Source: Candidatus Nanopelagicales bacterium (GTDB taxonomy: Bacteria > Actinomycetota > Actinomycetes > S36-B12). From it: DNA of 62,637 nucleotides. The stretch covers positions 1 to 62,637 of the forward strand of contig JALRGY010000002.1 in the NCBI GenBank assembly GCA_023253325.1, given 5' to 3'. Shown here piece by piece: positions 24,465 through 51,210 of the stretch; position 1 is the stretch's first letter, and every line of letters starts with the position of its first letter. Below the pieces are notes generated by a model. It did not search any database. It had not been told where the DNA came from and saw only the letters and a list, made by a program, of their open reading frames with translations. A program made the position numbers and the translations under genes.

Positions 24465-25364
24465 GTGAGCGACAGGCTAAGCGTGACCACTCCGAGGGAT
24501 GATGCCCTTTCCGGGCGCAATGAGGTCCTGCTTCAACGGATTGCGCGCCCACAGTCGCTGATCTTTACCATTTATGGCGCCTATAGCCGCTCCCTCGGTG
24601 GATGGATGTCCGTCGGTGCATTGCTTGAATTGTTGCGGGAAATCGGAGTCGAGGACCCAGCAGTAAGAAGCGCCCTGTCCCGCTTTAAACGTCGAGGTGT
24701 GCTGATCTCCGAATCTCGAGATGGCTCAGCAGGCTATGCACTGAGTGAAAGCGCACGGCGCACTTTCGACATTGGTGACGCACGCGTCTTGGAGCGACGG
24801 GAGCCTCCTTCGAGCGACCGATGGGTTCTCATTGCCTTTTCCATTCCAGAAAAATCGCGGGATCTGAGATACCGTCTGCGATCACGGTTATCCCGAGTCG
24901 GCTTTGCACAGGTGACTGGCGGGCTTTGGATCGCACCCGAGGGGCTTGAAGTAGATGCTCGGCTGGTGATCGAATCCCTAGGTGTCAGCGAACATGTTGA
25001 TGTATTTCGCAGTGAACACGTTGCTTTCCGCAGCATGCCTGACGCGGTCGGTGAGTGGTGGGACCTCCAATCCATCGCAAATGAGTATCAGGATTTTTCT
25101 TCAACTTTTGCTGACCTCACAGAGGACTATAAATCTGGAAAAATAGAGATGACGCCCCTGCAGGCATTCATTGATTACACGCGTGTGCTCACCGCGTGGC
25201 GACCCCTGCCCTATCGAGATCCAGGGCTTCCTGCCGCGCATCTACCAATGGACTGGCCTGGAATCCAAGCCACTCAAATGTTTTTCAACTTTTACGACAT
25301 ACTCGGTGGCTTGGCGCAACAACATGTGATCGATGTTTGTTCAGCGCGAAATAGGCAGTCTTAA
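24465..25364 (+). CDS. PaaX-family transcriptional regulator
   Basis: N-terminal winged-helix region (RPQSLIFTIYGAY...VRSALSRFKRRGVL) and a C-terminal PaaX_C-like region (TAWRPLPYRDPGLP). GTG start. Confidence 0.7.
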   Translation: MSDRLSVTTPRDDALSGRNEVLLQRIARPQSLIFTIYGAYSRSLGGWMSVGALLELLREIGVEDPAVRSALSRFKRRGVLISESRDGSAGYALSESARRTFDIGDARVLERREPPSSDRWVLIAFSIPEKSRDLRYRLRSRLSRVGFAQVTGGLWIAPEGLEVDARLVIESLGVSEHVDVFRSEHVAFRSMPDAVGEWWDLQSIANEYQDFSSTFADLTEDYKSGKIEMTPLQAFIDYTRVLTAWRPLPYRDPGLPAAHLPMDWPGIQATQMFFNFYDILGGLAQQHVIDVCSARNRQS

Positions 25365-26911
25365 AAATCTGAAGTGGGCTGCCACTTCCCGTACACCTCG
25401 CGCAAAACGTTTGTGATCTCCCCTACCGTTGCATACTCTTTAACAGCGACCACAACCGCGGGAACGATATTAATTCCGGCTTGGGCCGCTAATAACAAAC
25501 TCTCGAGGGATTCAGTCACTTTATCCGTGTTTCTTTTTAACTTTATTTTCGCGAGGTCAGCGATTTGTCGTTGCTCGCTTTCCTTATCAATTTCAAAGAC
25601 CTCAAACCTCGCGGACTCTGACACAAAGGTATTAACACCAATAACTTTTTGATCACCTGAGTCAATGGCACGCGCAGTTTCGTAGGCGCTGTCTGAGAGT
25701 TTGGTGGCGAAATAGCCGGACTCGATGCAGGCAAGTGCTCCACCAAGTTCGGCGATCTTGTCCATCTCAGAAAAAATGGCGGCTTCGAGTTCGTCGGTCA
25801 GACTCTCGAGGAGTTCACTGCCGCCGAGAGGATCAACGAGTCCCGTGACACCTGTTTCAAAGGCAACAACCTGCTGTGTACGCAGGGCAAGCGTGGCAGC
25901 TGCTTCGGTGGGAACACCCAAGGCTTCATCGAACGCACAGACATGCATTGTTTGGCAACCACCCAATGCGGCGGCAAGTGCTTCAATTGAAGTGCGCACA
26001 ACGTTGTTCAGTGGTTGTTGGGCTGTCAAAGACGAGCCCGCAGTGAAGGCAAATATCCTCAGTTGCTCGGAGCGAGGATCTTGTGAGCCATAACTCTCAC
26101 GCATTAACTTTGCCCAGACTCGTCGAGCTGCGCGAAATTTTGCAACTTCAGGCATGAACTCCATATTGCTCGATAGAAACGTGAACAGCGTTGGTGCAAC
26201 GTCATCGACGGTCATACCGCGTTCGATGGCTGCGTCCATGTACGCCCGCGCGTTAGCAAAGGTGAAGGCAATTTCCTGAACGGCACTGGAACCTGACTCG
26301 CGAATGTGATAGCCGCTCATGGCGAGGGAGACCCATCGAGGAATTTTTGTGGCGACATGTTCAATAACATCGACTGACAGCTTCAGGCCCGCCGGAGCGG
26401 GGAAGATCTGAGTGCCGCGGGCAAAATACTCTTTAAGCACGTCATTTTGAATAAACATTCCGAATTTATTGGGATCCACTCCGCGCTTTTCAGCCAACGC
26501 TTCAAACATGGCCGCCCAGATGTAACCGATGGAGTTCGCAGTGGTTCGAACTTGGGTGATTTTCTCGAGTTCAATGCCATCCATCAAGATTTCAATGTCG
26601 GCCAAACTGTCAATGGCGACACCAACTTTGCCAACCTCCCCCGCCGCAAGAGGATTATCCGAGTCAAGTCCCATTTGTGTGGGGAGGTCAAGAGCGACAC
26701 TGAATCCCGTGAGACCTTGATCTAACAAAGAACGAAATCGAGCATTGGTTTCCTTGGCGGTTCCAAAGCCTGCATACTGCCCCATGGTCCACACTCCGGG
26801 ATCCGCACTAATTCCACGGGTGTAGGGGTAGGCGCCAGGAACCTCTTGGCTCTGTGAGTTACTCACTTTATTGACCCTTTCCACTTGTTTCTTCTGCGTT
26901 GAGTTCCTCAC
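25361..26911 (-). CDS. acyl-CoA mutase large (substrate-binding) subunit, methylmalonyl-/isobutyryl-CoA mutase family, without a B12-binding domain
   Basis: PGAYPYTRGI...QYAGFGTAKETNARFRSLLDQGLTGFSVALDLPTQMGLDSD is the hallmark N-terminal TIM-barrel signature. At 516 aa it ends before any DxHxxG cobalamin domain. Confidence 0.85.
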   Translation of the reverse strand: MRNSTQKKQVERVNKVSNSQSQEVPGAYPYTRGISADPGVWTMGQYAGFGTAKETNARFRSLLDQGLTGFSVALDLPTQMGLDSDNPLAAGEVGKVGVAIDSLADIEILMDGIELEKITQVRTTANSIGYIWAAMFEALAEKRGVDPNKFGMFIQNDVLKEYFARGTQIFPAPAGLKLSVDVIEHVATKIPRWVSLAMSGYHIRESGSSAVQEIAFTFANARAYMDAAIERGMTVDDVAPTLFTFLSSNMEFMPEVAKFRAARRVWAKLMRESYGSQDPRSEQLRIFAFTAGSSLTAQQPLNNVVRTSIEALAAALGGCQTMHVCAFDEALGVPTEAAATLALRTQQVVAFETGVTGLVDPLGGSELLESLTDELEAAIFSEMDKIAELGGALACIESGYFATKLSDSAYETARAIDSGDQKVIGVNTFVSESARFEVFEIDKESEQRQIADLAKIKLKRNTDKVTESLESLLLAAQAGINIVPAVVVAVKEYATVGEITNVLREVYGKWQPTSDF

Positions 26912-28430
26912 GCAAAACCTTTTTTGCGATTTTCCCCGTTGAGTTCAGCGGAAATTCGGTCACAATGCGAACATCTTTTGGTTTTTTATATGACGCTAGG
27001 TTCGCTTTGCAATGCTCAAGAATTGAATCGATACTCGTATCAGCCCCATCGCGCAGTGTCACAAGTGCGGTGACGTGCTGCCCCCAGTCCGAGTCATTTA
27101 CTCCGACGACAGCAACTTCGTGGACGCCGGGGACTTCAGCGATGGTGTCTTCGATTTCACGAGGGTAGATGTTGTAGCCACCTGAAATAATCATGTCACC
27201 TTTACGGTCTACCAAGAAAAGGTAGTCATCAGCATCAAGGCGGCCAAGATCACCGGTGTGAAGCCAGCCATCGCGCACCGCCTTGGTCACCGTGTTGTCT
27301 TGTCCAGCTTGACCGTAGTACCCGCGCATGACGTGATCGCCTCGAGTAATTACCTCACCGATTTCTCCTGAAGGTACGTCATTGCCTTGTTCATCGACAA
27401 TGCGTACTTCAACTCCATTACACGGATTGCCAGCGCTGGTGAGTAATTCGGGTTCACCAAAAATTCCGCGTCGGTGCTCTTCGGGTCCAAGTACAGTGAC
27501 CGGTGGAATGGCCTCAACTAACCCGTAATACTGACTCATGTTGACGGTAATTCGTTCATAACAATCCTTGATTTGTTCGGGCGGCATTGGTGCCCCCGCA
27601 TATCCCATGATTTCAAGATTCTTCATGCGCTCACGGGATATGTCCGGCATCGCGAGAAGTCGTGCCACCATGGTCGGGACAAGTGCCGTTCCATTCGCTC
27701 CACGGTTTTCAATGGCATCCACCAAGTCTTCGGGGTCGTACTTAGCTTGAACAATTTGCTTGGCACCGAATGTGAAATAAGGCAAGACAAACAAGCCTGT
27801 TGTATGTGTAACCGGTCCCGCGTGAACCCAAGTGCTGTTTTCATTGGGAACTTTGCCTAAAAAGTCTGTAACTATGTTGTGCAAACTCGCCATTCTGTTG
27901 CGGTGTGTGCGGATCGCCCCTTTGGGGTTGCCCGTTGTCCCACTTGAGTAGTTCAACGAGACCAACGCATCCGGGTCAACAGAAAGTAGCAGTGGTTCGG
28001 GAGACTGTGCCGCGAGAAAGCGTTCATATTCTGTGCTCTGGCCCGGATCTCCATTGATAACAATGACGTGATCCACCATCGATCGTATTTCGGCGGTCTG
28101 ATCCCAAAATTTAACATCAAGAATGAGTACCTTGGGCGTGCAGTCATTTGTGATTCTGACCCAGTCAGTTGGATGAAGACGGTAGTTGAGCGCCACGCGA
28201 CACAAGCCAGCTGTGCTGATGCCTAGGTCAGTTTCAATGTATGTGTTCTGATTGGACTGTAAATCCAAAACCCGATCGCCCGTCTCGAGTCCCAATGCAC
28301 GCAAGCCACGAGCAAGCTGCATTACTCGCGCTCCCGTTTGACCATAGGAGCTTTCACCCTCAGGACCAATAAGGGCAATGCGATCTCGGTACCTTTGCAT
28401 TGAGCGTGCAACGAGTCGACCAACATCCAT
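26868..28430 (-). CDS. AMP-forming acyl/aryl-CoA ligase (class I adenylate-forming enzyme)
   Basis: YSSGTTGNPKG (A3), GYGLVE-like, TGDLG, and IISGGYNIYPREIE motifs, with a C-terminal GKIAKK lysine. Confidence 0.85.
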   Translation of the reverse strand: MDVGRLVARSMQRYRDRIALIGPEGESSYGQTGARVMQLARGLRALGLETGDRVLDLQSNQNTYIETDLGISTAGLCRVALNYRLHPTDWVRITNDCTPKVLILDVKFWDQTAEIRSMVDHVIVINGDPGQSTEYERFLAAQSPEPLLLSVDPDALVSLNYSSGTTGNPKGAIRTHRNRMASLHNIVTDFLGKVPNENSTWVHAGPVTHTTGLFVLPYFTFGAKQIVQAKYDPEDLVDAIENRGANGTALVPTMVARLLAMPDISRERMKNLEIMGYAGAPMPPEQIKDCYERITVNMSQYYGLVEAIPPVTVLGPEEHRRGIFGEPELLTSAGNPCNGVEVRIVDEQGNDVPSGEIGEVITRGDHVMRGYYGQAGQDNTVTKAVRDGWLHTGDLGRLDADDYLFLVDRKGDMIISGGYNIYPREIEDTIAEVPGVHEVAVVGVNDSDWGQHVTALVTLRDGADTSIDSILEHCKANLASYKKPKDVRIVTEFPLNSTGKIAKKVLREELNAEETSGKGQ

Positions 28431-28458
28431 TGTGGTGCCTCCTAATTAGTTTGATTGT

Positions 28459-30510
28459 CTAGTCAGTGGGGGGTGAAACATACGCTGCATCGAGGACCCA
28501 ACAGCCGCGCTCAAGAACGGTCACCGGATTTATGTCTAATTCACAACCAGTTGGCCAATTTCTCACACCGTGCGCAAGGGTCTCAATAAATGTGACCAAA
28601 GCCTTGCGGTCTGATGGTTGGGTGCCTCGTGCACCTGCGAGTAATTGCTCAAGCGCGGTCTCAGAAATCATCTGCTCAATATCAACTCGATCTACAGGGA
28701 GCAGACGCACCGAAGCACTCGCCACAATCTCCGTCAAAACCCCGCCAACCCCCACCGTGAGCACCGGTCCCATGGAGCTCCCGCTGATTCCAACCAGGAC
28801 TTCAATTCCCCCGGGAACAAACCTTTCAACGAGCACATCACCACCCATGGCTTTCAGTGTGGTGAAGGTTTTCACGGCTTGATCAGTTGTTACATCAAGC
28901 ACCACTCCGCCTGCATCGGACTTGTGAAGCAGTCCTGGAACGATGGCCTTGAAAACTGCCCTGCCGCCAACGTTGTCAACGGCGTCGAGGACCTGTGCAG
29001 ACTCACTGACAAGAATTGATTCAGGGATGGGTAATCCTGAGGATGCGAGTAATTCCTTTAATTCCTTTTCCGATGCACCTGGTGAAGGGGTGGGAATCTC
29101 GGAAGGAGAGGCTACATCGAATGCACGATCAACTCTCGTGTTCACGGTGACGAGGGCGCGCAGGGCAGCCACAGCCCGTTCGGGGGTTGGATACACAGGG
29201 ACACCTGCTCTTTTGAGCACTTCAGCGCCCTCGGGCGCAAGTGCAGCCGCGCCCGTGCGAACCGCCGCCACGGGAAGACCAGTTCGTACCCGCACTTCAT
29301 GTAGGGCGGTCGCAATTCTGTCAACATCCTTGCCCACCAACACTGCAAAGCAAGCGACGATTGCATTCACCGCTGGATCGTCAGCCAACCGATCAACACA
29401 ACGTTCAAATAAGCCTGGTTCAGCCATCACCGCAGCAGTGACATCGACCGGGTTCGTAGCATTGCCATAACTGGGAACAATCTGTTCTAGGTCGGACACT
29501 GTGGATTGATCAAGATTGGCAAGGACCAAACCTTCTTTTTCGATTGCATCGACGGCGAGGATTCCACTTCCCCCGGATGTAGTGACGATGCCAACCCCTG
29601 AGCCACCGATGGCTCTCTCCGATGCAAACAGGGAAGCGACATCGAGCAACTCATCAATGTTGTCGACTCTAGCTATGCCATATTGTTTTAATCCTGCGCT
29701 CACCACTTTGTCTGGCGACGCCAACGCTCCAGTGTGCGAAGCCGCGGCCTCCGCTCCCGCCGCACTGCGCCCAGCTTTAAGGATTGCTATTGGTTTGGTT
29801 GCCGCAACCTGCGCTAATAAATCCAGATTTCCCAATGACTCAACGTACATAACAACAGCATCGACACCAGGGTCCTGCGCAAGTTGCACAGCAACTTCAG
29901 TAGCTGTGACATCTGCTTCGTTGCCGGTTGTGATGGCGATCCCAGTGGGGACACCACGTTCAAGACCAAGGGACAGTGCTCCAAAACCAAGGGCACCCGA
30001 TTGGCTCACTAACGCAATGCGTCCGTTAGGTAACGGGGTTGCTTCGGATGAAAAGACTGGGCTAAACGTTGCCATCACTTTATGGGCGCCGCCCACTGAC
30101 CCGATGCAGTTTGGCCCGACAATTCGCATTCCCTTGGTTCGGGCGATATCGACCAATTCCTGTTGTGCGGCAGCGCCTTTTTCATCAACCTCAGCGAAAC
30201 CTGAAGACATGACGATAGCCACATTCACACCAGCGTCCGCGCAATCCCGCACGGCATCTTTGACGTGTTGAGCTGGCACCATAATGAGGGCAAGGTCAAT
30301 ATGTTGTGGAACAGATGCCATGGAGGGGAATGCCTCCATACCGAAAATCTCTCCGCCCTTTGGGTTCACGGGCGCAATGAATCCATCAAAACCATGTTTG
30401 ATCAAGTACTCGAGCGGCAAGCGGCCCATTGCGCCGACGCGCTCCGTCGCCCCGATGACGGCGATGGATGTCGCCGCCCACAGGGGACGCAGATCAAGGT
30501 GTGATGTCAC
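28459..30510 (-). CDS. ADP-forming (NDP-forming) acyl-CoA synthetase, fused CoA-binding/ligase and ATP-grasp domains
   Basis: 683 aa. N-terminal IAVIGATER...VNPKGGEI (CoA_binding), SQSGALG and catalytic-His-region AASHTGALA, and a C-terminal ATP-grasp-like region. Confidence 0.8.
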   Translation of the reverse strand: MTSHLDLRPLWAATSIAVIGATERVGAMGRLPLEYLIKHGFDGFIAPVNPKGGEIFGMEAFPSMASVPQHIDLALIMVPAQHVKDAVRDCADAGVNVAIVMSSGFAEVDEKGAAAQQELVDIARTKGMRIVGPNCIGSVGGAHKVMATFSPVFSSEATPLPNGRIALVSQSGALGFGALSLGLERGVPTGIAITTGNEADVTATEVAVQLAQDPGVDAVVMYVESLGNLDLLAQVAATKPIAILKAGRSAAGAEAAASHTGALASPDKVVSAGLKQYGIARVDNIDELLDVASLFASERAIGGSGVGIVTTSGGSGILAVDAIEKEGLVLANLDQSTVSDLEQIVPSYGNATNPVDVTAAVMAEPGLFERCVDRLADDPAVNAIVACFAVLVGKDVDRIATALHEVRVRTGLPVAAVRTGAAALAPEGAEVLKRAGVPVYPTPERAVAALRALVTVNTRVDRAFDVASPSEIPTPSPGASEKELKELLASSGLPIPESILVSESAQVLDAVDNVGGRAVFKAIVPGLLHKSDAGGVVLDVTTDQAVKTFTTLKAMGGDVLVERFVPGGIEVLVGISGSSMGPVLTVGVGGVLTEIVASASVRLLPVDRVDIEQMISETALEQLLAGARGTQPSDRKALVTFIETLAHGVRNWPTGCELDINPVTVLERGCWVLDAAYVSPPTD

Positions 30511-30905
30511 GGGAGAATCGCTGTTCCTTCAATTTCGATCAGTGCGTCGTCATCCCACAGACGCGTGACGCCGACAAGTGTCATTGCGGGGTAATCCCGC
30601 CCAACAAGCCGTTTCCATACCGCTCCGATTTCGCTTGAGTGCGCGCGGTAATCAACAGGATCAACGCAATAGATCGTGAGTTTTGCTAGCTGTGACGGAT
30701 TTCCGCCAGCGGCTTCCAGTGCGGCCAATAAATTTTGCAAGCCTTTTTCCACTTGTTCGACAATTGTCGCCCCCACAATTACGTTGTTGGCGTTCAATGC
30801 TGTTTGTCCGGCGAGTAAGACAATCGTGGAACCTTCCGCGACCACTGCATGTGAAAACCCAATTGGTGGGGCAAGTGACTCTGGATTGATTCTCTTCACT
30901 GTCAT
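30507..30905 (-). CDS. RidA/YjgF-family enamine/imine deaminase
   Basis: 132 aa with a typical RidA fold sequence (GFSHAVV...LAGQTAL...TIYC...YPAMTLVGV..L...IEIEGTA). 4-nt overlaps with both neighbours. Confidence 0.8.
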   Translation of the reverse strand: MTVKRINPESLAPPIGFSHAVVAEGSTIVLLAGQTALNANNVIVGATIVEQVEKGLQNLLAALEAAGGNPSQLAKLTIYCVDPVDYRAHSSEIGAVWKRLVGRDYPAMTLVGVTRLWDDDALIEIEGTAILP

Positions 30906-31675
30906 GTCTGAACCTTTCCGCCATCAAGGGTGATCCCTTGTCCGTTTATTGCACCCTGTTCGTGGACAAGGAAATTAACTGTTGCTGCCACTTCTTCGGG
31001 TTCTATCAATTTTCCGTGCCCCTGTTCTTGTGCCAATGTGTCCAGCACTTCACTCCGATTCCTACCCGTCTTTTCAACAATAGAATCAACAGTACGTGCT
31101 GTCATGGGTGTATTCACATAGCCGGGACAGACAGCATTCACGGTTATTCCGTGTGACGACAATTCCGCAGCGGCGGACCGCACTAGACCCAGGACTCCAT
31201 GCTTTGCCGCGGTGTAGGCCGAGATGTAGGGGGCTCCGACGCGCGAGGCAACGCTTGCAATGACAACGATGCGGCCAAAACCTTGCTCTTTCATCGTGGG
31301 TATTGCCGCACGCATAAATCGGAATGGGGCATTGAGATTGAGTTCGATCATGCGCTCCCATAGTGCGTCATCAGTTCGCGTTATGGGTGCAGAGATCCCT
31401 TCGCCTGCGTTAATAACGAGAACATCGAGCCCATTCCATTCACTCACCACCTGCTGGACAATTTTGTCAGCGGCGGTGGGGTCCGTGACATCGCCTGGAA
31501 TGACCAAATGTGGCACTTTCAAGGTGCTAGCAACTGCAAGCAGGTCCGACTCAGTTCGAGCAGTCAGGGCAATTGGGTAGCCAGCGCTGGCCAAATCACC
31601 CACAATTGCTGCACCAATACCTCGACTGGCTCCAGTCACTAGGCAACGGAAAGGAGATTGCCTCGACGAATTCAT
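30902..31675 (-). CDS. SDR-family oxidoreductase (3-hydroxyacyl-CoA / 3-oxoacyl reductase-like)
   Basis: VTGASRGIG, NAG and YTAAKHGV (YxxxK) motifs. First gene of the minus-strand operon 31675 to 25361. Confidence 0.8.
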   Translation of the reverse strand: MNSSRQSPFRCLVTGASRGIGAAIVGDLASAGYPIALTARTESDLLAVASTLKVPHLVIPGDVTDPTAADKIVQQVVSEWNGLDVLVINAGEGISAPITRTDDALWERMIELNLNAPFRFMRAAIPTMKEQGFGRIVVIASVASRVGAPYISAYTAAKHGVLGLVRSAAAELSSHGITVNAVCPGYVNTPMTARTVDSIVEKTGRNRSEVLDTLAQEQGHGKLIEPEEVAATVNFLVHEQGAINGQGITLDGGKVQT

Positions 31676-31735: not shown

Positions 31736-31759
31736 CTGTCGATCGGCAATAATACGACA
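31736..31759. promoter_or_regulatory. 23-bp pseudo-palindromic candidate operator, site A (TGTCGATCGGCAATAATACGACA), in the divergent SDR/thiolase promoter
   Basis: Read directly. It ends 1-2 nt before the thiolase ATG, and its AATAAT/ATTATT core can act as a -10 in both directions. It matches site C at 20 of 23 positions by eye. Coordinates are +/-1 nt: my hand indexing in this line disagrees by 1 with the ORF track. Confidence 0.5.
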
Positions 31760-31760: not shown

Positions 31761-32936
31761 ATGAGCCCTACCCGTCCTGTAGTTGCCGCAGCAAAGCGGA
31801 CAATGTTTGGTAAAAATCGAGGTGCGCTCTCAGGGATTCGCCCAGACGACCTTTTGGCGCTGAGTCTGCGAGAGCTTGCCGCGTCGATTCCTGGCCTAGA
31901 TCTTTCTCGAGTCGATGACATAGTGATGGGCGATGCCAATGGCGCCGGCGAGGACAACCGCAATGTGGCCCGCATGGGCGCCCTCCTAGCCGACTTCCCC
32001 GTCACTATTCCCGGCGTGACCCTGAACAGGCTCTGCGGTTCGGGAGGCGAGGCGATTGTGCAAGCATCGAGGGCGGTGCTCTCGGGTGACATGGACATCG
32101 TTATCGCTGGTGGAGTGGAAAGCATGAGCCGCGCGCCGTTCGTTCTGCCCAAGTCCGATAAGCCACTTGATGCATCGATGAAACTGGAACAAACCACGGT
32201 CGGTTGGCGAATGATCAACCCTGCATTCCCCAAACATTGGACAGACTCCCTTGGCGAGTGCGCACAACGCAGTGCCCAGGAACTGGGCATCGGGAGACAA
32301 GAACAGGATGAATGGTCAGTGCGGTCACATGAATTGGCTTCTGCTGCCTGGGACCGAGGCGTGCACGACGGGTTTGCATTCTCCGTTAACGACTTGACCC
32401 GCGATGAATCAATTAGACCCACCACGACGCTCGAAACGCTCGGTGCATTGAAACCCGCCTTTACCGCCGACGGCACTGTCACCGCTGGCAATTCATCACC
32501 CATCAACGACGGTTCCGTAGCAGCGCTCATCACGCGAGAAGAGATCGCGAGAGATCTCAATCTTGACTCATTTGCATCGATTGTTTCATCAGCAGTTGTC
32601 GCGGTTGAACCCGACAGATTCGCCAACGCCCCTGTCCCTGCAATGCATAAGTTATTGCAGCGCAACAACTTAACCTTCGGTGATATTGATTTATTCGAAA
32701 TCAATGAAGCTTTCGCTGCGATGGTTCTCACCGTTCTCCGGGAAGAACCACGCATTGACGTGTCAAAAGTAAATCCCAATGGTGGTGCGATAGCAATGGG
32801 GCATCCGGTTGGTGCCTCCGCTGCTCGAGTCGTTGTTGACGCTGCTCGCAATCTTCATGCGCGTGGTGGTGGTCGTGCAATTGCGACTGCTTGTATTGGT
32901 GTTGGTCTCGGTATCGCAATTCTCTTGGAGGCATGA
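31761..32936 (+). CDS. acetyl-CoA C-acyltransferase (thiolase II-like)
   Basis: VVAAAKRTMFGK N-terminus, NRLCGSG active-site Cys, GGVESMS, and the C-terminal NPNGGAIAMGHP..GASG..ACIGVGLG signature. The internal ATG at 31761 gives the canonical N-terminus. Confidence 0.9.
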   Translation: MSPTRPVVAAAKRTMFGKNRGALSGIRPDDLLALSLRELAASIPGLDLSRVDDIVMGDANGAGEDNRNVARMGALLADFPVTIPGVTLNRLCGSGGEAIVQASRAVLSGDMDIVIAGGVESMSRAPFVLPKSDKPLDASMKLEQTTVGWRMINPAFPKHWTDSLGECAQRSAQELGIGRQEQDEWSVRSHELASAAWDRGVHDGFAFSVNDLTRDESIRPTTTLETLGALKPAFTADGTVTAGNSSPINDGSVAALITREEIARDLNLDSFASIVSSAVVAVEPDRFANAPVPAMHKLLQRNNLTFGDIDLFEINEAFAAMVLTVLREEPRIDVSKVNPNGGAIAMGHPVGASAARVVVDAARNLHARGGGRAIATACIGVGLGIAILLEA

Positions 32937-33761: not shown

Positions 33762-35306
33762 CTAGCTCAGGATCTTGGCAACCATGGACCCACTGGAACC
33801 ACCAACGCCTCCGCCGGGCCATGTGCCGGCTCCACAGAGATAGAGATCTTTAACGGGTGAGCGATGCCGACCCCACCCCGGAACAGGGCGAAGGAAGAAG
33901 AACTGTGATGGGTGGTGGCTACCGCCCAGAGAATCTCCCTTGATGAGATTCGCGTTGTAACGTTCTAGGTCAGTTGGACTGAGCACAGCGCGCGCAATGA
34001 CAGCATCTTTGAGACCTGGTGCATACTCCTCAATTTTCGCCATGACGAGATCGGCATACGCCTCTGAAATATCTTCCCAGCGCGAACCATCTGCCAGATC
34101 CAAGGGCAGCATGCGAACTTGGACCCACAGCGTGTGCTTTCCTTCGGGCGCGCGCGATGGATCTGTGACAGTTGGTTGACCGATGACCAATGTTGGTGAT
34201 GCAGGAAGTCGCCCCGCGGCTGCGTCCGTGTAGGTCTGGGCCATGTCGTCTACGTATGGCCCAATATGAACGTAGTTGTAGGTCCGCGCTTCACTCGCTG
34301 TCCACGGCGGCAACTCTTCTAGTGCAAGGTGAATCATCATGGTGGCTAGTCCGGACTGGAATTTTTCCACCCGTTTAATGCTTGATTCTTGGGCAACATG
34401 TGTTGGAAGAAGTTCGGGCATGAGGCGGGGATTGACATTGCTCACCACGGCTTTCTTGGCAGCCACGGATTCCCCTGTCGCGAGCACCACACCTGTTGCT
34501 CGCTTGCTATCAACGGTGATCTCATCCACGCGTGCATTGCATCGCACTTCACCGCCATTGGCTTCAATGATTTGCACCAATGCATCGATCAGAGAGGCTG
34601 CGCCACCCTGTCCAATGACCATGCCAAAGAGTTGGCCACCGATTGTTTCTAGGAATGAAAAGAGCGCACCACCCGAAACATCGGGCGCGAAATCCAAGTG
34701 CATGCCCCATGTCGCCATGAGAGCTTTGGTTTTTGGTGACTGAAAATTTTCATTGGTGAACGATCTGGTCGACTGCAACGCTAACTTGGCAATTTCATAA
34801 AGCCCAACCGTTCCTAGAGCGCGATGCGCTTTCCAGAGTGTTTTAACCGCAGCAACACTGGGTAAATCTGAATTAAGCACGCCAATCAGAAATGGTGCCC
34901 ATAGCCCCAATTTTGCCGTGAGTTCCTCCCACGCTTCGACGTCTTCAGGTGCGACTGCCGCGAGGTTCTTAATGGTGGCAGAGGCGTCAGCCTCAACACC
35001 GATCATGCTGCCATCGGGATAAACGGAACAGAAGGGTTTCGATGAGGGGACGAGGCTAAATCCATACTTGGTCAGTTGTTCACCCAATGCCGCCATGACG
35101 GGGCCGCCTGCGAAGAGGCCCAGGTTCATGGCGAAAAGATCATGATGAAAGCCGGGGACGGTTATTTGTTCGGTGCGAACTGCACCACCAGGGGCATCAT
35201 TAGATTCAAGAACTATTACTTTTTTTCCCTCTACCGCCAGTAATGCTGCGGCGCTGAGTCCATTGATCCCCGAACCGATGACAATCACGTCGAAGGAATT
35301 CTCCAT
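33762..35306 (-). CDS. NAD(P)/FAD-dependent oxidoreductase, phytoene desaturase (CrtI)-like family
   Basis: DVIVIGSGINGLSAA...VLESNDAPGG dinucleotide fold, with C-terminal LYLCGAGTWPGGGVGG. Confidence 0.75.
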   Translation of the reverse strand: MENSFDVIVIGSGINGLSAAALLAVEGKKVIVLESNDAPGGAVRTEQITVPGFHHDLFAMNLGLFAGGPVMAALGEQLTKYGFSLVPSSKPFCSVYPDGSMIGVEADASATIKNLAAVAPEDVEAWEELTAKLGLWAPFLIGVLNSDLPSVAAVKTLWKAHRALGTVGLYEIAKLALQSTRSFTNENFQSPKTKALMATWGMHLDFAPDVSGGALFSFLETIGGQLFGMVIGQGGAASLIDALVQIIEANGGEVRCNARVDEITVDSKRATGVVLATGESVAAKKAVVSNVNPRLMPELLPTHVAQESSIKRVEKFQSGLATMMIHLALEELPPWTASEARTYNYVHIGPYVDDMAQTYTDAAAGRLPASPTLVIGQPTVTDPSRAPEGKHTLWVQVRMLPLDLADGSRWEDISEAYADLVMAKIEEYAPGLKDAVIARAVLSPTDLERYNANLIKGDSLGGSHHPSQFFFLRPVPGWGRHRSPVKDLYLCGAGTWPGGGVGGSSGSMVAKILS

Positions 35307-35451
35307 GTGATGTTCTCCCTAATCTTCCAAAAAACTGACGACCGCCATCATTGCGCTATACGCTCGTGCGTGCAACCATGGTGGCGAAAAATGTTCCGCA
35401 CGATTTGTCGGAAGTCGCGGTCGCAGGAGACGTCGGAGGAAGGGAGCGCTC

Positions 35452-37017
35452 GTGGCACACAGCAGCGATGCCGTAATTATTGGCAGTGGGATCAATTCAT
35501 TGGTGTCTGGCGCCATGCTCGCGCAAAAGGGCTGGCGAGTCACCGTTCTCGAGCGCAATGATCTTGCCGGCGGTGCGATAGCAACGCGCACGGACATATT
35601 TCCCGGTTATACCGTTGAGCTCCTTTCGAGCTGGCATCCACTTTTTCTCGGGGGCCCTGCCTACGCCGAACTCGCAACTGACCTAGCCCGGCTCGGGGTG
35701 GAATACCTCAACACCGAAGATCCCACCGGAGTCATTTGTGCGGACGGTTCAGCCGTCTTGTCCACCGATGCCAATAGAAATGCCACGATGTTCGAAAGTC
35801 TGGGAGACCTAGAAGCTTGGAATGCCGTCATGTCTGATTTCGGTGGGAAGGCTGAACTCGCATTCGGACTCCTTGGAACGGATTTTTGGCGCCCAAACTC
35901 CAGCAAGTTAGGTTGGAAAGCATGGCGTCACTTGGGCCGAAAAGGCTTGTTGGCCAGCGGTGCCGAGTTGTTAGAACCCGCAGCACCTTGGGCTGATCGG
36001 ACGTTCACATCGCCCGTTACCAAGGCCCTGCTCGCTCCCTGGGCACTCCACAACGGACTGGGTCCGGACGATGCCTCAAGTGCGTTCATCACAAAAGTGA
36101 TTTCAGCCGCAATCTCTATGGGGGGCATGCCAATTCCCGTTGGAGGTGGGGTGAAACTTGTCGATGCTCTGAGCACGATCATCTCCGAAGCTGGTGGCGA
36201 GATCGTGACCGGCGTGGAAGCCACACATATTGCCGTGTCAGGTGGTCGGGCACACGGCGTTCGAACGAGTTCAGGTGTCACGTACACGGCGCAGAAGGCG
36301 GTACTTGCCTCGGTAACACCACAATCCCTTTACTTGAATTTATTGGATCCAAGTGATGTTCCAACCGATTACTCCACGGCTGCCTCGCAATATCGCTATG
36401 GGCGAGCCGGAATGCAGATTCACCTGGCCCTCTCGGAGCCGCCGGAGTGGACGGTCCCCGGCATGGACAAGGTCGCTTTGGTTCACGTTCTCGACTCCAT
36501 GAACTCCCTCTCCGAGTCGGTAAACGCGGCCAACAGAGGTTTCCTTCCACGCCGACCCACAATTGTTGTTGGTCAGCCCTCCACAATCGATCCTTCACGA
36601 GTTCCCGAGGGAGCTGGCCTGCTCTGGATCCAACTGCAGGAAATTCCACGGGAGATTCGCGGGGACCTAGCCGGAGAAATCGATCACCTCGGGGCATGGA
36701 CCCCCGAGATTCGGGACCGCTACGCGGACCGGGTCATTGAGCAACTCACGCCACATATTGCAAATATCTCGACCAGCCTCACCGGCAAGTGCATCTTGGG
36801 CCCGGCCGACTTGGCCGCCCTGAACGTCAACCTCGTTGGAGGCGACCCATATGCCGGCGACTGCCGCGTCGACCAATACGCCCTATGGCGACCTTTACGG
36901 TTAGCCAACGGGCATAACACGGGAATCAAAGGGCTATGGCATATCGGTGCCTCGACGCACCCCGGGCCAGGTCTGGGCGGTGGTTCGGGATATCTCGTGG
37001 CAAAACGGTTGCGCTAA
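35452..37017 (+). CDS. NAD(P)/FAD-dependent oxidoreductase, CrtI-like family (paralogue of the divergent neighbour)
   Basis: DAVIIGSGINSLVSG...VLERNDLAGG fold, with C-terminal LWHIGASTHPGPGLGG. Alignable by eye along its length with 33762-35306. Confidence 0.75.
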   Translation: MAHSSDAVIIGSGINSLVSGAMLAQKGWRVTVLERNDLAGGAIATRTDIFPGYTVELLSSWHPLFLGGPAYAELATDLARLGVEYLNTEDPTGVICADGSAVLSTDANRNATMFESLGDLEAWNAVMSDFGGKAELAFGLLGTDFWRPNSSKLGWKAWRHLGRKGLLASGAELLEPAAPWADRTFTSPVTKALLAPWALHNGLGPDDASSAFITKVISAAISMGGMPIPVGGGVKLVDALSTIISEAGGEIVTGVEATHIAVSGGRAHGVRTSSGVTYTAQKAVLASVTPQSLYLNLLDPSDVPTDYSTAASQYRYGRAGMQIHLALSEPPEWTVPGMDKVALVHVLDSMNSLSESVNAANRGFLPRRPTIVVGQPSTIDPSRVPEGAGLLWIQLQEIPREIRGDLAGEIDHLGAWTPEIRDRYADRVIEQLTPHIANISTSLTGKCILGPADLAALNVNLVGGDPYAGDCRVDQYALWRPLRLANGHNTGIKGLWHIGASTHPGPGLGGGSGYLVAKRLR

Positions 37018-37187
37018 CGCCGCCACTAGTACATGCTGTCCTTGTGACGGTCGTCAAAATAGTGTGATCTTGCCCGAAAGTATGTGACAAATCTGCTGTT
37101 GTGCCGACCAGTAATCTCCCCCATGCTTGTGCATGGGATTACGTCGGTGCACATGTACCGCGGCCAGTTAATGAAGGGATCATCGTA

Positions 37188-39356
37188 ATGGCGGAACGGT
37201 CATTTGCCAACGAAGTCCAGGAACTGCGCCTTGGCGCTGGTGCTGAGTTCCGTGGGGAGGGAATCCTCGCGGTCACAAAGGGACTGTTGCAGTCCGGAGT
37301 CGCCTATGTAGGTGGCTACCAAGGTGCTCCTATTTCCCACCTCATGGATGTCCTCGGTGATGCCCACGAAATTCTTGAAGAACTTGACGTCTATTTCGAA
37401 AACAGTGCATCCGAGGCAACCGCGGCGGCGATGCTCGCTGCATCGGTGCACTATCCACTCCGTGGGGCCGTTACGTTCAAGTCAACGGTCGGCACGAACG
37501 TTGCATCCGATGCACTTGCAAACTTAGCTTCCGGCGGTGTGCTTGGCGGCGCTCTCATTATTATCGGTGAGGATTACGGCGAGGGCTCGAGCATTATGCA
37601 GGAACGCTCACACGCGTTTGCCATGAAATCCCAAATGTGGCTCCTCGATCCAAGACCAAACCTCACCGCAATCGTAGATTTTGTTGAAAAAGGTTTCGAA
37701 CTCTCTGAAGCAAGTAGCACCCCCGTCATGTTGGAGTTGCGCCTGCGCTCTTGCCACCTGCACGGGTCATTTATCACACGCGACAACAAACGGCCCCCGT
37801 TCACTTTGAAGGAAGCCATCGAGAACCCACAGCGCGATGTCAGTCGCGTTGTGCTGCCGCCATCAAGCTTCACGCACGAACAAGAAAAGGTGAAGGACCG
37901 TTGGCCCGCGGCCGTTAAATTCATCCAAGAAAACGAACTCAATGAATTCGTTGCGGAAAAAGATCAGAACATCGGCATTATTTTGCAGGGTGGACTCTTC
38001 AACACTGTTAATCGCTCACTTGAATTACTGGGTTTGTCTGACCCCTACGGGAATAGTCAAATACCGCTCTACGTTCTCAATGTGACCTACCCGATCATTG
38101 ATCAAGAAGTCCTTCGTTTCTGTGAAGGCAAAGATGCAATTCTCTTGGTTGAAGAGGGTCAGCCTGATTACATCGAACAAAACATCAACACGGTTTTGCG
38201 TCGTGCGGGTGACACAACAGCACTACATGGCAAAGACCTACTGCCCGTTGCTGGCGAATACACACCTGCAGCCGTGACCAAGGGCGTAACCGCATTTATA
38301 CAAAAGTACCTTCCCAGCAAGATCAACTCCGAAAACTTGCCTGCAATCGTTTTTGATAACGACGATCCACGTAGTCCATTCGCGCCACGAGTTGCTCCCG
38401 AGTTAGTCCAAGGGCGACCACCTGGTTTTTGTACCGGTTGCCCTGAGCGCCCGATTTTTGCGGCCCTGAAGCTTGCTGAACGGGAAGTTGGGTCACACAT
38501 CGTCAGCGCGGACATTGGCTGCCACCTGTTTTCCATCAACGCACCGTTCAATATCGGTGCTACAACAATGGGCTATGGCCTTGGCTCTGCAAGTGGGTCC
38601 GCTTTCAACGCAAAGGACTCGGACAAACGAACAATCGCTTTCATGGGCGACGGAGGCTTTTGGCACAACGGCCTAACCAGTGGAGTTGGCAACGCAGTGT
38701 TCAATGAAAATGATCAGTTATTGGTTGTGGTTGACAATGCATACAGCGCGGCAACCGGCGGACAGGACGTACTTTCATCACGCGCCGAAGCACTCAATCG
38801 CTCCACCAACCACCCCATCGAGCGCGCGGTCCGCGGTATCGGTGTCAAGTGGTCACGAACCATGACGAATACATTCAAAGTGGCTGAAATGCGAGACCTT
38901 TTCAAGGAAGCACTCACAACAAAAGAAAAAGGGCCCAAAGTCATTGTTGCTCAGAGTGAATGCACCCTGAATCGAGAGAGGCGGGAGAAGCCTGCACGCG
39001 CCAAGAAAATCAAAGAAGGCAAGCGGGTGGTCCGAGAGCGCTACGGCGTTGACCCTGAAACCTGCACTGGTGATCACTCCTGCATACGAATTTCTGGGTG
39101 CCCATCTTTGACCATTGGCCCCAACCCTGACCCAATGCGCAATGACCCGATCGCGACAGTGTTAGACAGTTGCGTTGGCTGTGGTCTCTGTGGCGAAAAC
39201 GCACATGCCGCAGCCCTCTGCCCCTCGTTCTACCGAACTGAAGTTATTTACAACCCCAGCTGGTGGGACAAAGCCAAACTAGGAATTCGACAGAAGTACA
39301 TCGGTTGGCTGCAAAAGGGAATTGAAAAGCAACTTGTCGGAATTGATGCTGCATGA
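37188..39356 (+). CDS. iorA: indolepyruvate/arylpyruvate:ferredoxin oxidoreductase alpha subunit (TPP and 4Fe-4S binding)
   Basis: GYQGAPISH N-terminal pyrimidine-binding region, FCTGCPERP, GDGGFWHNG TPP motif, and the C-terminal Cys cluster CVGCGLCGENAHAAALCP. ATG at 37188. Confidence 0.85.
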   Translation: MAERSFANEVQELRLGAGAEFRGEGILAVTKGLLQSGVAYVGGYQGAPISHLMDVLGDAHEILEELDVYFENSASEATAAAMLAASVHYPLRGAVTFKSTVGTNVASDALANLASGGVLGGALIIIGEDYGEGSSIMQERSHAFAMKSQMWLLDPRPNLTAIVDFVEKGFELSEASSTPVMLELRLRSCHLHGSFITRDNKRPPFTLKEAIENPQRDVSRVVLPPSSFTHEQEKVKDRWPAAVKFIQENELNEFVAEKDQNIGIILQGGLFNTVNRSLELLGLSDPYGNSQIPLYVLNVTYPIIDQEVLRFCEGKDAILLVEEGQPDYIEQNINTVLRRAGDTTALHGKDLLPVAGEYTPAAVTKGVTAFIQKYLPSKINSENLPAIVFDNDDPRSPFAPRVAPELVQGRPPGFCTGCPERPIFAALKLAEREVGSHIVSADIGCHLFSINAPFNIGATTMGYGLGSASGSAFNAKDSDKRTIAFMGDGGFWHNGLTSGVGNAVFNENDQLLVVVDNAYSAATGGQDVLSSRAEALNRSTNHPIERAVRGIGVKWSRTMTNTFKVAEMRDLFKEALTTKEKGPKVIVAQSECTLNRERREKPARAKKIKEGKRVVRERYGVDPETCTGDHSCIRISGCPSLTIGPNPDPMRNDPIATVLDSCVGCGLCGENAHAAALCPSFYRTEVIYNPSWWDKAKLGIRQKYIGWLQKGIEKQLVGIDAA

Positions 39357-43019: not shown

Positions 43020-43064
43020 AACATTGATCCTTCCAGTTTTCAGTGTGAGTACATTGTGTCGGTT

Positions 43065-45422: not shown

Positions 45423-45474
45423 CGGATGAACTTCCCTTCTGAATTTCCCGACACCCACACCTCTTGCGTCTTTT

Positions 45475-45497
45475 TGACTATCGCCAATAGTACGGTA
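45475..45497. promoter_or_regulatory. candidate operator site B (TGACTATCGCCAATAGTACGGTA) in the divergent monooxygenase/SDR promoter
   Basis: 17 of 23 positions match site A by eye. The central CAATAGTA (TACTAT on the minus strand) is -10-like. Confidence 0.4.
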
Positions 45498-45549
45498 TAT
45501 ACATCATTGAGCAACCTTTTTCCCGAAATCCCACTCAATTTAGGCAAGG

Positions 45550-49726: not shown

Positions 49727-49848
49727 TTGTGTCACAAAAAGCTCCCGAGAGAAGTGTTGACGCGCGCAATAAGCACACAATGAACACTAGTTGGTGAATA
49801 AGCAGGCTGCGGGGAAAACATGCAATCCCCGCAGCCTGCTGTGTTCAA

Positions 49849-51123: not shown

Positions 51124-51187
51124 TTGTTCTCCCTCATTCATTCGTGGATTAAGGCAACTGCCCTTGTGCCCATCTATGCCGTAATTC

Positions 51188-51210
51188 TGTCGTACGTCAA
51201 TAATACGACA
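51188..51210. promoter_or_regulatory. candidate operator site C (TGTCGTACGTCAATAATACGACA) upstream of the ABC importer operon
   Basis: Perfect 7-bp inverted arms TGTCGTA/TACGACA around CGTCAATAA. TATTAT on the minus strand is -10-like, about 50-70 nt upstream of the binding-protein start. Confidence 0.5.

What the first reader, a model, noticed from the sequence alone, without database searches (positions are those of the whole stretch)
31736..31759. Recurrent 23-bp pseudo-palindrome in three island promoters: candidate shared operator overlapping bidirectional -10 elements
**Seen in sequence.** Three related sites occur in island promoter regions:
- Site A, about 31736: TGTCGATCGGCAATAATACGACA, between the divergent SDR operon and the thiolase.
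- Site C, 51188: TGTCGTACGTCAATAATACGACA, upstream of the ABC importer.
- Site B, 45475: TGACTATCGCCAATAGTACGGTA, between the monooxygenase fusion and the SDR.

A and C agree at 20 of 23 positions and B matches A at 17 of 23 (counted by eye). The outer arms TGTCGTA/TACGACA are inverted repeats. The centre reads AATAAT on one strand and TATTAT on the other, so a bound protein would occlude a -10 hexamer for either direction. At site A the motif ends 1-2 nt before the thiolase ATG, which implies a leaderless or near-leaderless mRNA.

**Inference.** The sites define one regulon. The only regulator encoded inside the island is the PaaX-like protein (24465-25364), which makes it the obvious candidate binder. 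This motif does not resemble the E. coli PaaX box as I remember it.
Basis: partly seen in the sequence, partly recalled or inferred. Interest (0 to 1): 0.7.

Follow-up and report, generated by a model that had tools for sequence, protein, structure and literature searches.

The report
Operator sites of PaaX-type repressor
The repeated 23-bp motif is a real, conserved repressor-binding site that switches on an aromatic-compound (anthranilate/tryptophan-type) breakdown gene cluster in freshwater Actinobacteria, but the same kind of operator and regulator is already known from a soil Arthrobacter plasmid.

Summary
The three sites exist as described: A at 31737-31759, B at 45475-45497 and C at 51188-51210. 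They are far from chance.

The common core is a 12-14 bp palindrome, TTGNCG-NN-CGNCAA, which forms the left end of the 23-mer. An extra CGNCA-type half-site often sits exactly 11 bp further out.

The window holds at least five such sites, all in promoter gaps of the island.

The sites are conserved at orthologous promoters in dozens of Nanopelagicales genomes whose flanking DNA has diverged. They also occur in Microbacterium, Rhodococcus and Nocardioidaceae, always next to a PaaX-like gene.

Plasmid pAL1 of Arthrobacter sp. Rue61a encodes two PaaX-type regulators that are 38-41% identical to the window protein. It carries the same palindrome at its four catabolic and regulatory promoters. From memory (the paper is not held), this is the published MeqR2 operator TGACGNNCGTcA, released by anthraniloyl-CoA.

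The thiolase start codon lies at a fixed 7 nt after AATAAT with no ribosome-binding site, which fits a leaderless mRNA.

It is a new member of a known kind.

The parts
31737..31759 (.). Site A. Core palindrome TGTCGATCGGCA at 31737-31748, AATAAT at 31748-53 (TATTAT on the other strand), outer half-site CGACA at 31755-31759. It lies between the SDR operon (-) and the thiolase (+).
   Evidence: Conserved at 22-23 of 23 positions in most close orthologues among 26 non-redundant sequences (more diverged in L070, L084, L088), while the rest of the spacer diverges.
35336..35355 (.). New site. Core TGACGACCGCCA at 35336-35347, plus an outer CG at 35354-55 (11 bp from the inner CG). It lies between two divergent amine-oxidase-like flavoprotein genes.
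   Evidence: The orthologous sites TGACGATCGACA and TGGCGGTCGTCA are conserved.
37045..37056 (.). New site. Perfect palindrome TGACGGTCGTCA, 45 nt upstream of iorA (37101). It is followed by AAATAGTGTGAT, which is conserved in L102.
   Evidence: This is the top PWM hit of the window.
45475..45497 (.). Site B. Core TGACTATCGCCA (= TGGCGATAGTCA on the minus strand), outer CG at 45493-94. It lies between the 2-aminobenzoyl-CoA monooxygenase/reductase-like gene (-) and SDR2 (+).
   Evidence: The variant ..CGATAGTCA is conserved at this gene's promoter in most loci, from Nanopelagicales to Microbacterium, with related variants in L088 and L098.
51177..51210 (.). Site C. A 34-bp extended palindrome, TGCCG-N6-TGTCG-TA-CGTCA-N6-CGACA, with its core at 51188-51199. 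It ends 47 nt upstream of the ABC substrate-binding gene (-).
   Evidence: Conserved in L102, in L070 and, more weakly, in L072.
51287..51298 (.). Possible extra site TGACGGTCGTCG, inside the 3' end of the thioesterase ORF. Unconfirmed.
   Evidence: It is not conserved in the 89%-related locus L102.
24465..25364 (+). PaaX-family regulator, the candidate repressor.
   Evidence: All three PaaX Pfam domains score above their cut-offs. It is 38-41% identical to the two PaaX-type proteins of pAL1. E = 3e-19 to E. coli PaaX, PDB 8A39.
31761..32936 (+). Thiolase gene, with its ATG 7 nt after AATAAT. Probable leaderless transcript, followed by an enoyl-CoA hydratase gene ending at 33733.
25361..31675 (-). 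Putative regulated operon: SDR, RidA, ADP-forming acyl-CoA synthetase, AMP-forming CoA ligase, and a methylmalonyl-CoA-mutase-like gene.
   Evidence: Synteny.
33762..40954 (.). Putative regulated genes: AO1 (-), AO2 (+) and iorAB (+).
42249..51141 (.). Putative regulated genes: monooxygenase/reductase (true start probably GTG 45422) plus cyclase (-), SDR2 (+), and the Liv-type ABC importer (-).

Best explanation
The motif is the operator of the island's PaaX-type repressor. The system is homologous to the PaaX-type regulators of Arthrobacter plasmid pAL1.

**Proposed mechanism**
- A repressor dimer recognises the 12-14 bp palindrome TTGNCG-NN-CGNCAA.
- At many promoters an additional CGNCA-type half-site, exactly one helical turn (11 bp) outside the core, probably supports cooperative binding of a second dimer.
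- The operators sit on or directly beside the A/T-rich -10-like hexamers of divergent promoters, so bound repressor blocks RNA polymerase in both directions.
- An aryl-CoA thioester made by the island's own CoA ligases releases the repressor. By analogy this is most likely anthraniloyl-CoA (2-aminobenzoyl-CoA).
- Release would induce at least five promoter regions: the SDR operon and thiolase, AO1 and AO2, iorAB, the monooxygenase and SDR2, and the ABC importer.
- The thiolase mRNA is probably leaderless.

**Shown here:** the sites, their statistics, their conservation, their position, and their co-occurrence with the regulator.

**Inferred:** binding, repression, the effector and the transcription start sites.
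For: **Specificity within the window**
- Statistics.
- A PWM trained without any window site puts its top three window hits, and five of its top seven, in island promoter gaps.

**Conservation in Nanopelagicales**
- In 26 non-redundant orthologous thiolase promoters only about 40 bp is conserved: ATAGTGCGC-N5-TTGTCGATCGGCAATAATACGACAcATG.
- Footprints of the same kind occur at AO1<->AO2, iorA<->cyclase, the monooxygenase gene and livK, and also at prpB in other genomes.

**Conservation beyond Nanopelagicales**
- Microbacterium candidum has TGACGATAGTCA directly after paaX, upstream of the monooxygenase operon.
- Rhodococcus erythropolis, a Nocardioidaceae MAG and a soil contig were fetched through the monooxygenase, not through PaaX. 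All three carry a PaaX gene within 10 kb and palindromes in their promoter gaps. These include gaps upstream of paaX itself or of its operon in two of them (L096, L098).

**Outer half-site**
- A CG lies exactly 11 bp outside the inner CG in 53% of flanks of 37 non-redundant sites. At every other offset the frequency is 18% or less.
- The spacing holds whatever the intervening 5-6 nt are (TAATA, ATATT, GAGAA, GTGTG).

**Link to the Arthrobacter system**
- pAL1 holds two PaaX-family genes next to an anthranilate-CoA ligase and the monooxygenase.
- Its palindromes lie in the gaps upstream of the two upper-pathway operons, the lower-pathway operon and the downstream paaX gene. There are 6 hits against 1.1 expected.
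- PMC3534580 states that these two regulators control quinaldine degradation.
- From my own memory of Niewerth et al. 2013 (J Bacteriol 195:1068): purified MeqR2 binds 5'-TGACGNNCGTcA-3' at these four promoters and is released by anthraniloyl-CoA.
Against: - There are no binding data, expression data or transcription start sites for this organism.
- The MeqR2 paper could not be retrieved, so the experimental link rests on memory plus the pAL1 sequence check.
- Most loci were fetched through PaaX, so co-occurrence is partly by construction. Only three loci (L096, L098, L100) were anchored independently.
- No negative control was possible, that is, homologous clusters without PaaX.
- No clear operator lies upstream of paaX in the window itself.
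- The -10 and -35 assignments are by eye. The sigma-70 scan found nothing at site A. TATTAT at site C is not conserved in L102.
- No whole genome could be scanned.
Confidence: 0.8

Rival explanations
1. The palindrome is bound by a different transcription factor, either the neighbouring AraC-type protein (22146-23228) or a factor encoded elsewhere. On this reading PaaX is only a passenger.
For: - AraC, the luciferase-like monooxygenase and the FMN reductases are syntenic with paaX in many loci.
- Some loci have a palindrome upstream of araC.
- Binding is untested.
Against: - Type-2 loci (L009-L012, L055 and others) and the Microbacterium, Rhodococcus and soil (L100) loci have the palindromes but no orthologous AraC nearby.
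- PaaX is the only regulator shared by all locus types.
- A different conserved motif, TGGATAG(A/T)C repeats upstream of the luciferase-like gene, fits AraC better.
- pAL1 has the palindromes together with two PaaX genes.
Confidence: 0.08
2. The motif is only shared core-promoter sequence, with TTGACG as a -35 and AATAAT/TATTAT as a -10 for the housekeeping sigma factor. No repressor is involved.
For: - TTGNCG resembles a -35 hexamer and AATAAT a -10 hexamer.
- In the livK promoter, TTGACG followed by 17 nt and then ATAGAT/ATAAAT is conserved.
Against: - The conservation is two-fold symmetric (CGNCAA mirrors TTGNCG), which a promoter does not need.
- The outer half-site keeps an 11-bp phase regardless of the sequence in between.
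- The position relative to start codons and -10-like elements differs between promoters.
- The same palindrome is kept in Microbacterium, in Rhodococcus and on pAL1.
- No other promoter in the 62-kb window carries it.
Confidence: 0.07
3. The inverted repeat acts as an RNA hairpin in 5' leaders, as an attenuator or translational element.
For: Site C can form a 7-8 bp stem, with z = -2.35.
Against: - Sites A and B fold no better than shuffled sequence, with z from +0.08 to -0.66.
- The core palindrome would leave a 2-nt loop.
- Changes in one arm are not compensated in the other. TGCCG pairs with CGACA, and TGTCG with CGCTA.
- No Rfam family reaches its gathering score anywhere in the window.
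- At the thiolase the element lies upstream of the start codon of a probably leaderless mRNA.
Confidence: 0.02

Closest known systems
MeqR2 / MeqR1 PaaX-type repressors and their operator on plasmid pAL1 of Arthrobacter sp. Rue61a (quinaldine to anthranilate to the anthraniloyl-CoA pathway)
   Same: - The regulator is of the same family, at 38-41% identity over the full length.
- The 12-bp palindrome TGACGNNCGTCA lies in the promoter gaps of catabolic operons and upstream of a regulator gene.
- The same anthranilate-CoA ligase and 2-aminobenzoyl-CoA monooxygenase/reductase genes sit next to the regulator.
   Different: - The host and habitat differ: planktonic Candidatus Nanopelagicales and a chromosomal locus.
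- The regulon is much larger and different in content. It includes indolepyruvate:ferredoxin oxidoreductase, two amine-oxidase-like flavoproteins, a mutase, beta-oxidation genes and an ABC importer.
- Frequent T/G/C variants occur at core positions 3 and 10.
- A conserved CGATAGTCA variant marks the monooxygenase promoter.
- The 11-bp-phased outer half-site and the leaderless thiolase are described here, and not, to my knowledge, for pAL1.
- The effector is unknown here.
E. coli / Pseudomonas PaaX (phenylacetyl-CoA-responsive repressor of the paa genes)
   Same: - Same protein family: all three PaaX Pfam domains, and E = 3e-19 to PDB 8A39.
- A repressor of a CoA-dependent aromatic pathway whose inducer is the first CoA thioester, and which autoregulates.
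   Different: - The operator is TGATTC-N27-GAATCA, which is absent from the window.
- Here the half-sites are TGNCG/CGNCA, separated by 2 bp, with optional outer half-sites at 11 bp.
- Protein identity is low (aligned; percentage not computed).
TetR-type PaaR operators (Thermus thermophilus, Corynebacterium glutamicum, Burkholderia cenocepacia)
   Same: From memory, the Thermus consensus CNAACGNNCGTTNG shares the central ACG-NN-CGT with TGACGGTCGTCA. It also controls an aryl-CoA pathway.
   Different: - The regulator family is different.
- No TetR gene lies in or near the island in any locus type.
- The resemblance is limited to the centre of the palindrome.

Membership tests
PaaX family of transcriptional regulators | N-terminal PaaX winged-helix domain (PF07848) | tested here: met
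   64.4 bits against a cut-off of 24.8, residues 28-96.
PaaX family of transcriptional regulators | Central Cas2-like domain (PF20803) and C-terminal PaaX_C domain (PF08223) | tested here: met
   75.4 and 72.2 bits, both above their cut-offs. Aligns to E. coli PaaX (PDB 8A39) over residues 30-281.
PaaX family of transcriptional regulators | DNA binding is relieved by an aryl-CoA thioester | not testable with these tools
   Context only. Two CoA-activating enzymes are encoded in the regulated operon.
E. coli-type PaaX operator | TGATTC-N27-GAATCA box in the regulated promoters | tested here: not met
   no match anywhere in the window. The conserved motif has different half-sites and spacing.
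MeqR2-type (actinobacterial anthraniloyl-CoA pathway) PaaX operator | 12-bp palindrome TGACGNNCGTcA in the promoter regions of catabolic operons | tested here: met
   - Window sites at 31737, 35336, 37045, 45475 and 51188.
- The same palindrome lies in the pAL1 promoter gaps.
- The published consensus itself is recalled from memory.
MeqR2-type (actinobacterial anthraniloyl-CoA pathway) PaaX operator | A PaaX-type regulator gene linked to anthranilate-CoA ligase and 2-aminobenzoyl-CoA monooxygenase/reductase genes | tested here: met
   Homologues of the monooxygenase are named anthraniloyl-CoA monooxygenase or salicylyl-CoA 5-hydroxylase by their sources.
MeqR2-type (actinobacterial anthraniloyl-CoA pathway) PaaX operator | An operator upstream of the regulator's own gene (autoregulation) | tested here: inconclusive
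   - Present in Rhodococcus (L096, position 5788), Nocardioidaceae (L098, position 2713), pAL1 (L101, position 5235) and some Nanopelagicales araC-paaX operons.
- No clear site lies upstream of paaX or araC in the window.
MeqR2-type (actinobacterial anthraniloyl-CoA pathway) PaaX operator | Specific binding by the purified regulator, abolished by anthraniloyl-CoA | not testable with these tools
   Needs EMSA and ITC.

The most novel reading that the evidence does not exclude
The operator may really be a four-half-site, 34-bp unit: TnnCG-N6-TGNCG-NN-CGNCA-N6-CGnnA, with an 11-bp phase. Two cooperating PaaX dimers would read it.

If so, it would link the compact actinobacterial palindrome to the widely spaced E. 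coli PaaX box. It would also give the first sequence-level model of how PaaX proteins recognise DNA.

Together with the regulon it defines, it would outline a previously undescribed route under one aryl-CoA sensor in very abundant freshwater Actinobacteria. The route would run from tryptophan or indolepyruvate to anthraniloyl-CoA, using iorAB, a mutase and beta-oxidation genes.
Probability: 0.3. Interest if true: 0.5.

Novelty: new member of a known kind. Interest (0 to 1): 0.33.

Why it matters
- It gives a ready-made, sequence-defined regulon for a CoA-dependent aromatic and amino-acid catabolic island. The hosts are Candidatus Nanopelagicales (recognised from the MAG names as the acI lineage of lakes and estuaries, which is largely uncultured, from general knowledge).
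- The operator can serve as a marker to find further regulon members. Examples seen in other genomes are the methylcitrate genes prpBCD and an unidentified gene just downstream of paaX.
- It can also help predict the inducing metabolite.
- The phased outer half-site offers a testable model of cooperative PaaX binding.
- The regulator-operator pair itself is not new in kind.

Tried and rejected
- **E. coli-type PaaX box TGATTC-N(24-30)-GAATCA:** no match.
- **Known RNA families:** none reaches its gathering score in the window.
- **RNA hairpin reading:** sites A and B fold like shuffled sequence, and the arms show no compensatory changes.
- **Sigma-70 consensus scan at site A:** nothing found. 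By eye the site is not a sigma-54 promoter, because the -24 GG is missing.
- **Similarity beyond the motif:** alignment of the three promoter regions shows it is limited to about 25-35 bp.
- **Extra site at 51287-51298:** scores well but is not conserved in L102, so I treat it as unconfirmed.
- **Autoregulatory site in the window:** none convincing upstream of paaX or araC.
- **Retrieving the MeqR2 paper or any paper quoting its motif:** failed. The del Peso-Santos 2006 paper is also not held.
- **Literature on this exact pathway in these organisms:** not found.
- **Metagenome-wide DNA scan:** not run. Any pattern loose enough to be informative would return thousands of chance hits, and a strict one would only return more orthologues.

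Full report
**Observation**

- Site A, TGTCGATCGGCAATAATACGACA, is at 31737-31759.
- Site C, TGTCGTACGTCAATAATACGACA, is at 51188-51210.
- Site B, TGACTATCGCCAATAGTACGGTA, is at 45475-45497.

The counted identities are correct: 20 of 23 for A against C, and 17 of 23 for A against B. The thiolase ATG is at 31761, one base after site A.

The consensus 23-mer has no chance expectation in shuffles. The degenerate form gives 5 hits against 0.08 expected. One of these is a second, overlapping copy on the other strand at 51177-51199.

**Context**

Pfam scans define the island, roughly 24465-51704.
- A PaaX-family regulator lies at 24465-25364.
- A minus-strand operon encodes a methylmalonyl-CoA-mutase-like protein, an AMP-forming CoA ligase, an ADP-forming acyl-CoA synthetase, RidA and an SDR.
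- Divergent from it are a thiolase and an enoyl-CoA hydratase.
- Next come two divergent amine-oxidase-like flavoproteins and indolepyruvate:ferredoxin-oxidoreductase-like IorAB.
- Then an MFS transporter, a cyclase (kynurenine-formamidase-like) and a 785-aa FAD-monooxygenase/old-yellow-enzyme fusion.
- Sources name homologues of that fusion anthraniloyl-CoA monooxygenase or salicylyl-CoA 5-hydroxylase.
- The island ends with a second SDR, a Liv-type ABC importer and a thioesterase.

An AraC-type gene, together with a luciferase-like monooxygenase and two FMN reductases, lies just upstream of paaX. The composition of the island does not differ from its surroundings.

Relatives of the regulator are all in Actinomycetota, mostly Candidatus Nanopelagicales MAGs. 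The closest is 90% identical, from Chesapeake Bay.

**What the motif really is**

Loci fetched through PaaX homologues were annotated by tblastn with the window proteins. Gene order varies, and there are two main arrangements. A common denominator recurs in the promoter gaps: the palindrome TGNCG-NN-CGNCA, usually TTGNCGNNCGNCAA.

In the window the exact 12-mer occurs 7 times against 1.5-1.7 expected. Four occurrences lie in island promoter gaps.
- 31737 is site A.
- 35336 lies between the two flavoprotein genes.
- 37045 is 45 nt upstream of iorA.
- 51188 is site C.

Site B is a one-mismatch variant.

The 716 nt of island intergenic DNA contain 4 hits to the 14-mer at 9 or more of 10 positions, against 0.04 expected (P about 1e-7). 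A matrix trained only on sites from other genomes ranks 37045, 31737 and 45475 first in the whole window. Five of its top seven hits are island promoter gaps.

**Conservation**

In 26 non-redundant thiolase upstream regions, only the last 40 bp or so before the ATG is conserved: ATAGTGCGC-N5-TTGTCGATCGGCAATAATACGACAcATG. Everything further upstream is unalignable.

The same kind of footprint is seen at several other promoters.
- AO1<->AO2.
- iorA<->cyclase (aaaTTGACGGTCGTCAaac).
- livK.
- The monooxygenase gene. There the variant TTG(G/A)CGATAGTCAA is kept from the window through Planktophila-like genomes.
- In type-2 genomes, the promoter of the methylcitrate operon prpBCD.

Outside Nanopelagicales the pattern continues.
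- Microbacterium candidum (PaaX 40% identical) has TGACGATAGTCA right after paaX, upstream of the operon that contains the monooxygenase.
- Three loci were fetched through the monooxygenase instead of PaaX: Rhodococcus erythropolis, a Nocardioidaceae MAG and a soil contig.
- All three contain a PaaX gene within 10 kb and palindromes in their promoter gaps. In two of them (L096, L098) these include gaps upstream of paaX or of its operon.

**The right arm of the 23-mer**

I aligned 37 non-redundant sites on the core and folded both orientations. A CG lies exactly 11 bp outside the inner CG in 53% of flanks. At every other offset the frequency is 0-18%.

The symmetrised consensus is T.T..CGTA...TTGACGATCGTCAA...TACG..A.A. 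The spacing holds whatever lies between: TAATA in the window, ATATT in L084, GAGAA in L098 and GTGTG in Microbacterium. The outer CGNCA element therefore behaves as a protein contact rather than only as promoter sequence.

Site C has outer elements on both sides and forms a 34-bp palindrome (51177-51210). The iorA, cyclase and prpB sites lack them.

Its symmetry is core plus auxiliary half-site, not one long palindrome.

**Position relative to promoters**

In one direction the palindrome abuts or overlaps an A/T-rich -10-like hexamer. Examples are CAATAAT at the thiolase and livK sites, CAAAAT/AATAGT at iorA, and CAATTT in type-2 iorA.

In the opposite direction a TAnnnT hexamer (TATTAT, TACTAT, TATCCT) directly precedes the palindrome. 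That would place the palindrome over the transcription start.

These assignments are by eye. The consensus scan found no sigma-70 promoter at site A. The TATTAT of site C is not kept in L102, where TTGACG-N17-ATAAAT is the better candidate.

For the thiolase, AATAAT-N7-ATG is kept in all 26 orthologues, with single-base variants of the hexamer in a few, and no Shine-Dalgarno sequence is present. Neighbouring genes have clear ones, such as AGGGAAG, GAGGGAG and AAGGAG. The extrapolated protein start coincides with this ATG. Leaderless mRNAs are common in Actinobacteria (established knowledge), so the leaderless reading is well supported but not shown.

**Who binds**

PaaX is the only regulator present in every locus type.
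- The AraC gene is absent from type-2 loci and from the Microbacterium, Rhodococcus and soil (L100) loci.
- A different conserved motif, TGGATAG(A/T)C repeats upstream of the luciferase-like gene, is a better candidate for AraC.

The decisive comparison is plasmid pAL1 of Arthrobacter sp. Rue61a, found by tblastn of the window regulator against plasmids.
- It carries two PaaX-family genes, 38% and 41% identical to the window protein.
- They flank an operon with a fumarylacetoacetate-hydrolase-family gene, a cupin, a thioesterase, an AMP-ligase and the monooxygenase/reductase.
- PMC3534580 identifies the ligase as an anthranilate-CoA ligase. It states that the two PaaX-related regulators control quinaldine degradation.

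Scanning pAL1 gives the following sites, with 6 hits against 1.1 expected.
- TGACGTGCGTCA, 134 nt upstream of the molybdenum hydroxylase operon.
- TGACGGGCGTCA, 150 nt upstream of the FAD-monooxygenase operon.
- TTACGATCGTCA, 34 nt upstream of the lower-pathway operon.
- TGACGACCGTCA, 188 nt upstream of the second paaX gene.

This matches my recollection of Niewerth et al. 2013 (J Bacteriol 195:1068). As I remember it, purified MeqR2 binds 5'-TGACGNNCGTcA-3' at exactly these four promoters, and anthraniloyl-CoA is the specific effector. I could not retrieve that paper, so this part is memory, not a tool result.

By contrast, the E. coli PaaX box is TGATTC-N27-GAATCA (review PMC9493321). It has no match in the window.

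**Rivals**

- A pure promoter-element reading does not explain the two-fold symmetry, the phased outer half-site, the variable position relative to genes, or the retention in unrelated genera outside Nanopelagicales.
- An RNA-structure reading fails. Sites A and B fold like shuffled sequence. Arm changes are not compensated. No Rfam family reaches its gathering score.
- A different transcription factor cannot be excluded without binding data, but it has no positive support.

**Mechanism proposed**

A PaaX-type repressor dimer sits on the core palindrome. A second dimer may be recruited through the outer half-site, which lies one helical turn away on the same face. The bound protein occludes divergent promoters.

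An aryl-CoA made by the island's own ligases releases it, most likely anthraniloyl-CoA by analogy.

Release would induce uptake (ABC importer), the upper steps (flavoproteins, IorAB, mutase, beta-oxidation genes) and the 2-aminobenzoyl-CoA monooxygenase/reductase.

The substrate assignment, tryptophan or indolepyruvate or indoleacetate to anthraniloyl-CoA, is inferred from gene content only.

**Novelty and verdict**

However, the regulator-operator pair is a member of an already characterised actinobacterial PaaX-type system.

New here are:
- the host lineage;
- the larger regulon, with two additional sites in the window, prpBCD elsewhere, and a further site just downstream of paaX in front of an unidentified gene in some loci;
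- the conserved weak variant at the monooxygenase promoter;
- the 11-bp-phased auxiliary half-site;
- the probable leaderless thiolase.

Interest is modest.

Noticed in passing
window 20975-20990; also L074, L082, L087, L048 and L105 (7290-7305): A conserved TGGATAG(A/T)C element lies upstream of the luciferase-like monooxygenase gene. It is present as two direct copies (TGGATAGTCGAC...CTGGATAGACGC) where that gene is divergent from paaX. It is a likely operator of the adjacent AraC-type regulator and is distinct from the PaaX palindrome.
   Followed up: partly
window 20870-20925: An AT-rich stretch carries near-identical direct repeats, GTATATGTATAGACA and GTATATACATAGACA. It lies between an unannotated 148-aa ORF (20352-20798, no Pfam hit) and the luciferase-like gene. 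Its function is unknown.
   Followed up: no
L009 14489-14500, and the same place in L054, L055, L061-L066, L068, L069, L071, L073: In type-2 genomes a perfect palindrome (ttttTGACGACCGTCAcctaccc) sits about 77 nt upstream of the methylisocitrate lyase, methylcitrate synthase and PrpD operon next to paaX. The regulon there seems to include propionyl-CoA disposal.
   Followed up: partly
L020 10894, L021 10868, L036 4515, L040 882: Palindromes lie immediately downstream of paaX, in front of the next gene. That gene was not identified in these loci. In L005 the corresponding neighbour is a malic enzyme, but no palindrome was seen there.
   Followed up: no
window 45422-45458: The longest ORF of the monooxygenase/reductase starts at GTG 45458. 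The conserved Rossmann start VKIAVVGAGPGG, preceded by AGAAGGGAAG, points to GTG 45422. Likewise the TTG 31701 start of the longest thiolase ORF would run through site A. The conserved start is ATG 31761.
   Followed up: yes
window 25361-26911, compared with L005 8923-9351 and L013 9476-9886: The mutase-like large subunit has no B12-binding small-subunit gene nearby in the window. Relatives encode a 136-142 aa B12-binding protein next to paaX. It may be encoded elsewhere in this genome, or 20352-20798 may be a diverged copy.
   Followed up: partly
window 51287-51298 and 51346-51357: Two further near-palindromes (TGACGGTCGTCG and TGACGCCCCTCA) lie inside the thioesterase gene, 77-136 nt beyond site C. 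They are not conserved in L102. They could be chance or lineage-specific auxiliary operators.
   Followed up: partly
L101 12945-12956 and 15798-15809 (pAL1): The lower-pathway promoter region of pAL1 (TTACGATCGTCAcataagctcaaggtagcacgacg) is present a second time in inverted orientation downstream of the first paaX gene (...cgtcgtgctagcttgagcatatgTGACGATCGTAA). This looks like a duplicated promoter and operator.
   Followed up: no
window 7322-10627: A gene with a mycothiol-dependent maleylpyruvate isomerase N-terminal domain fits an actinobacterial origin. Next to it is a GAF-histidine kinase and NarL/LuxR response-regulator pair, unrelated to the island.
   Followed up: no
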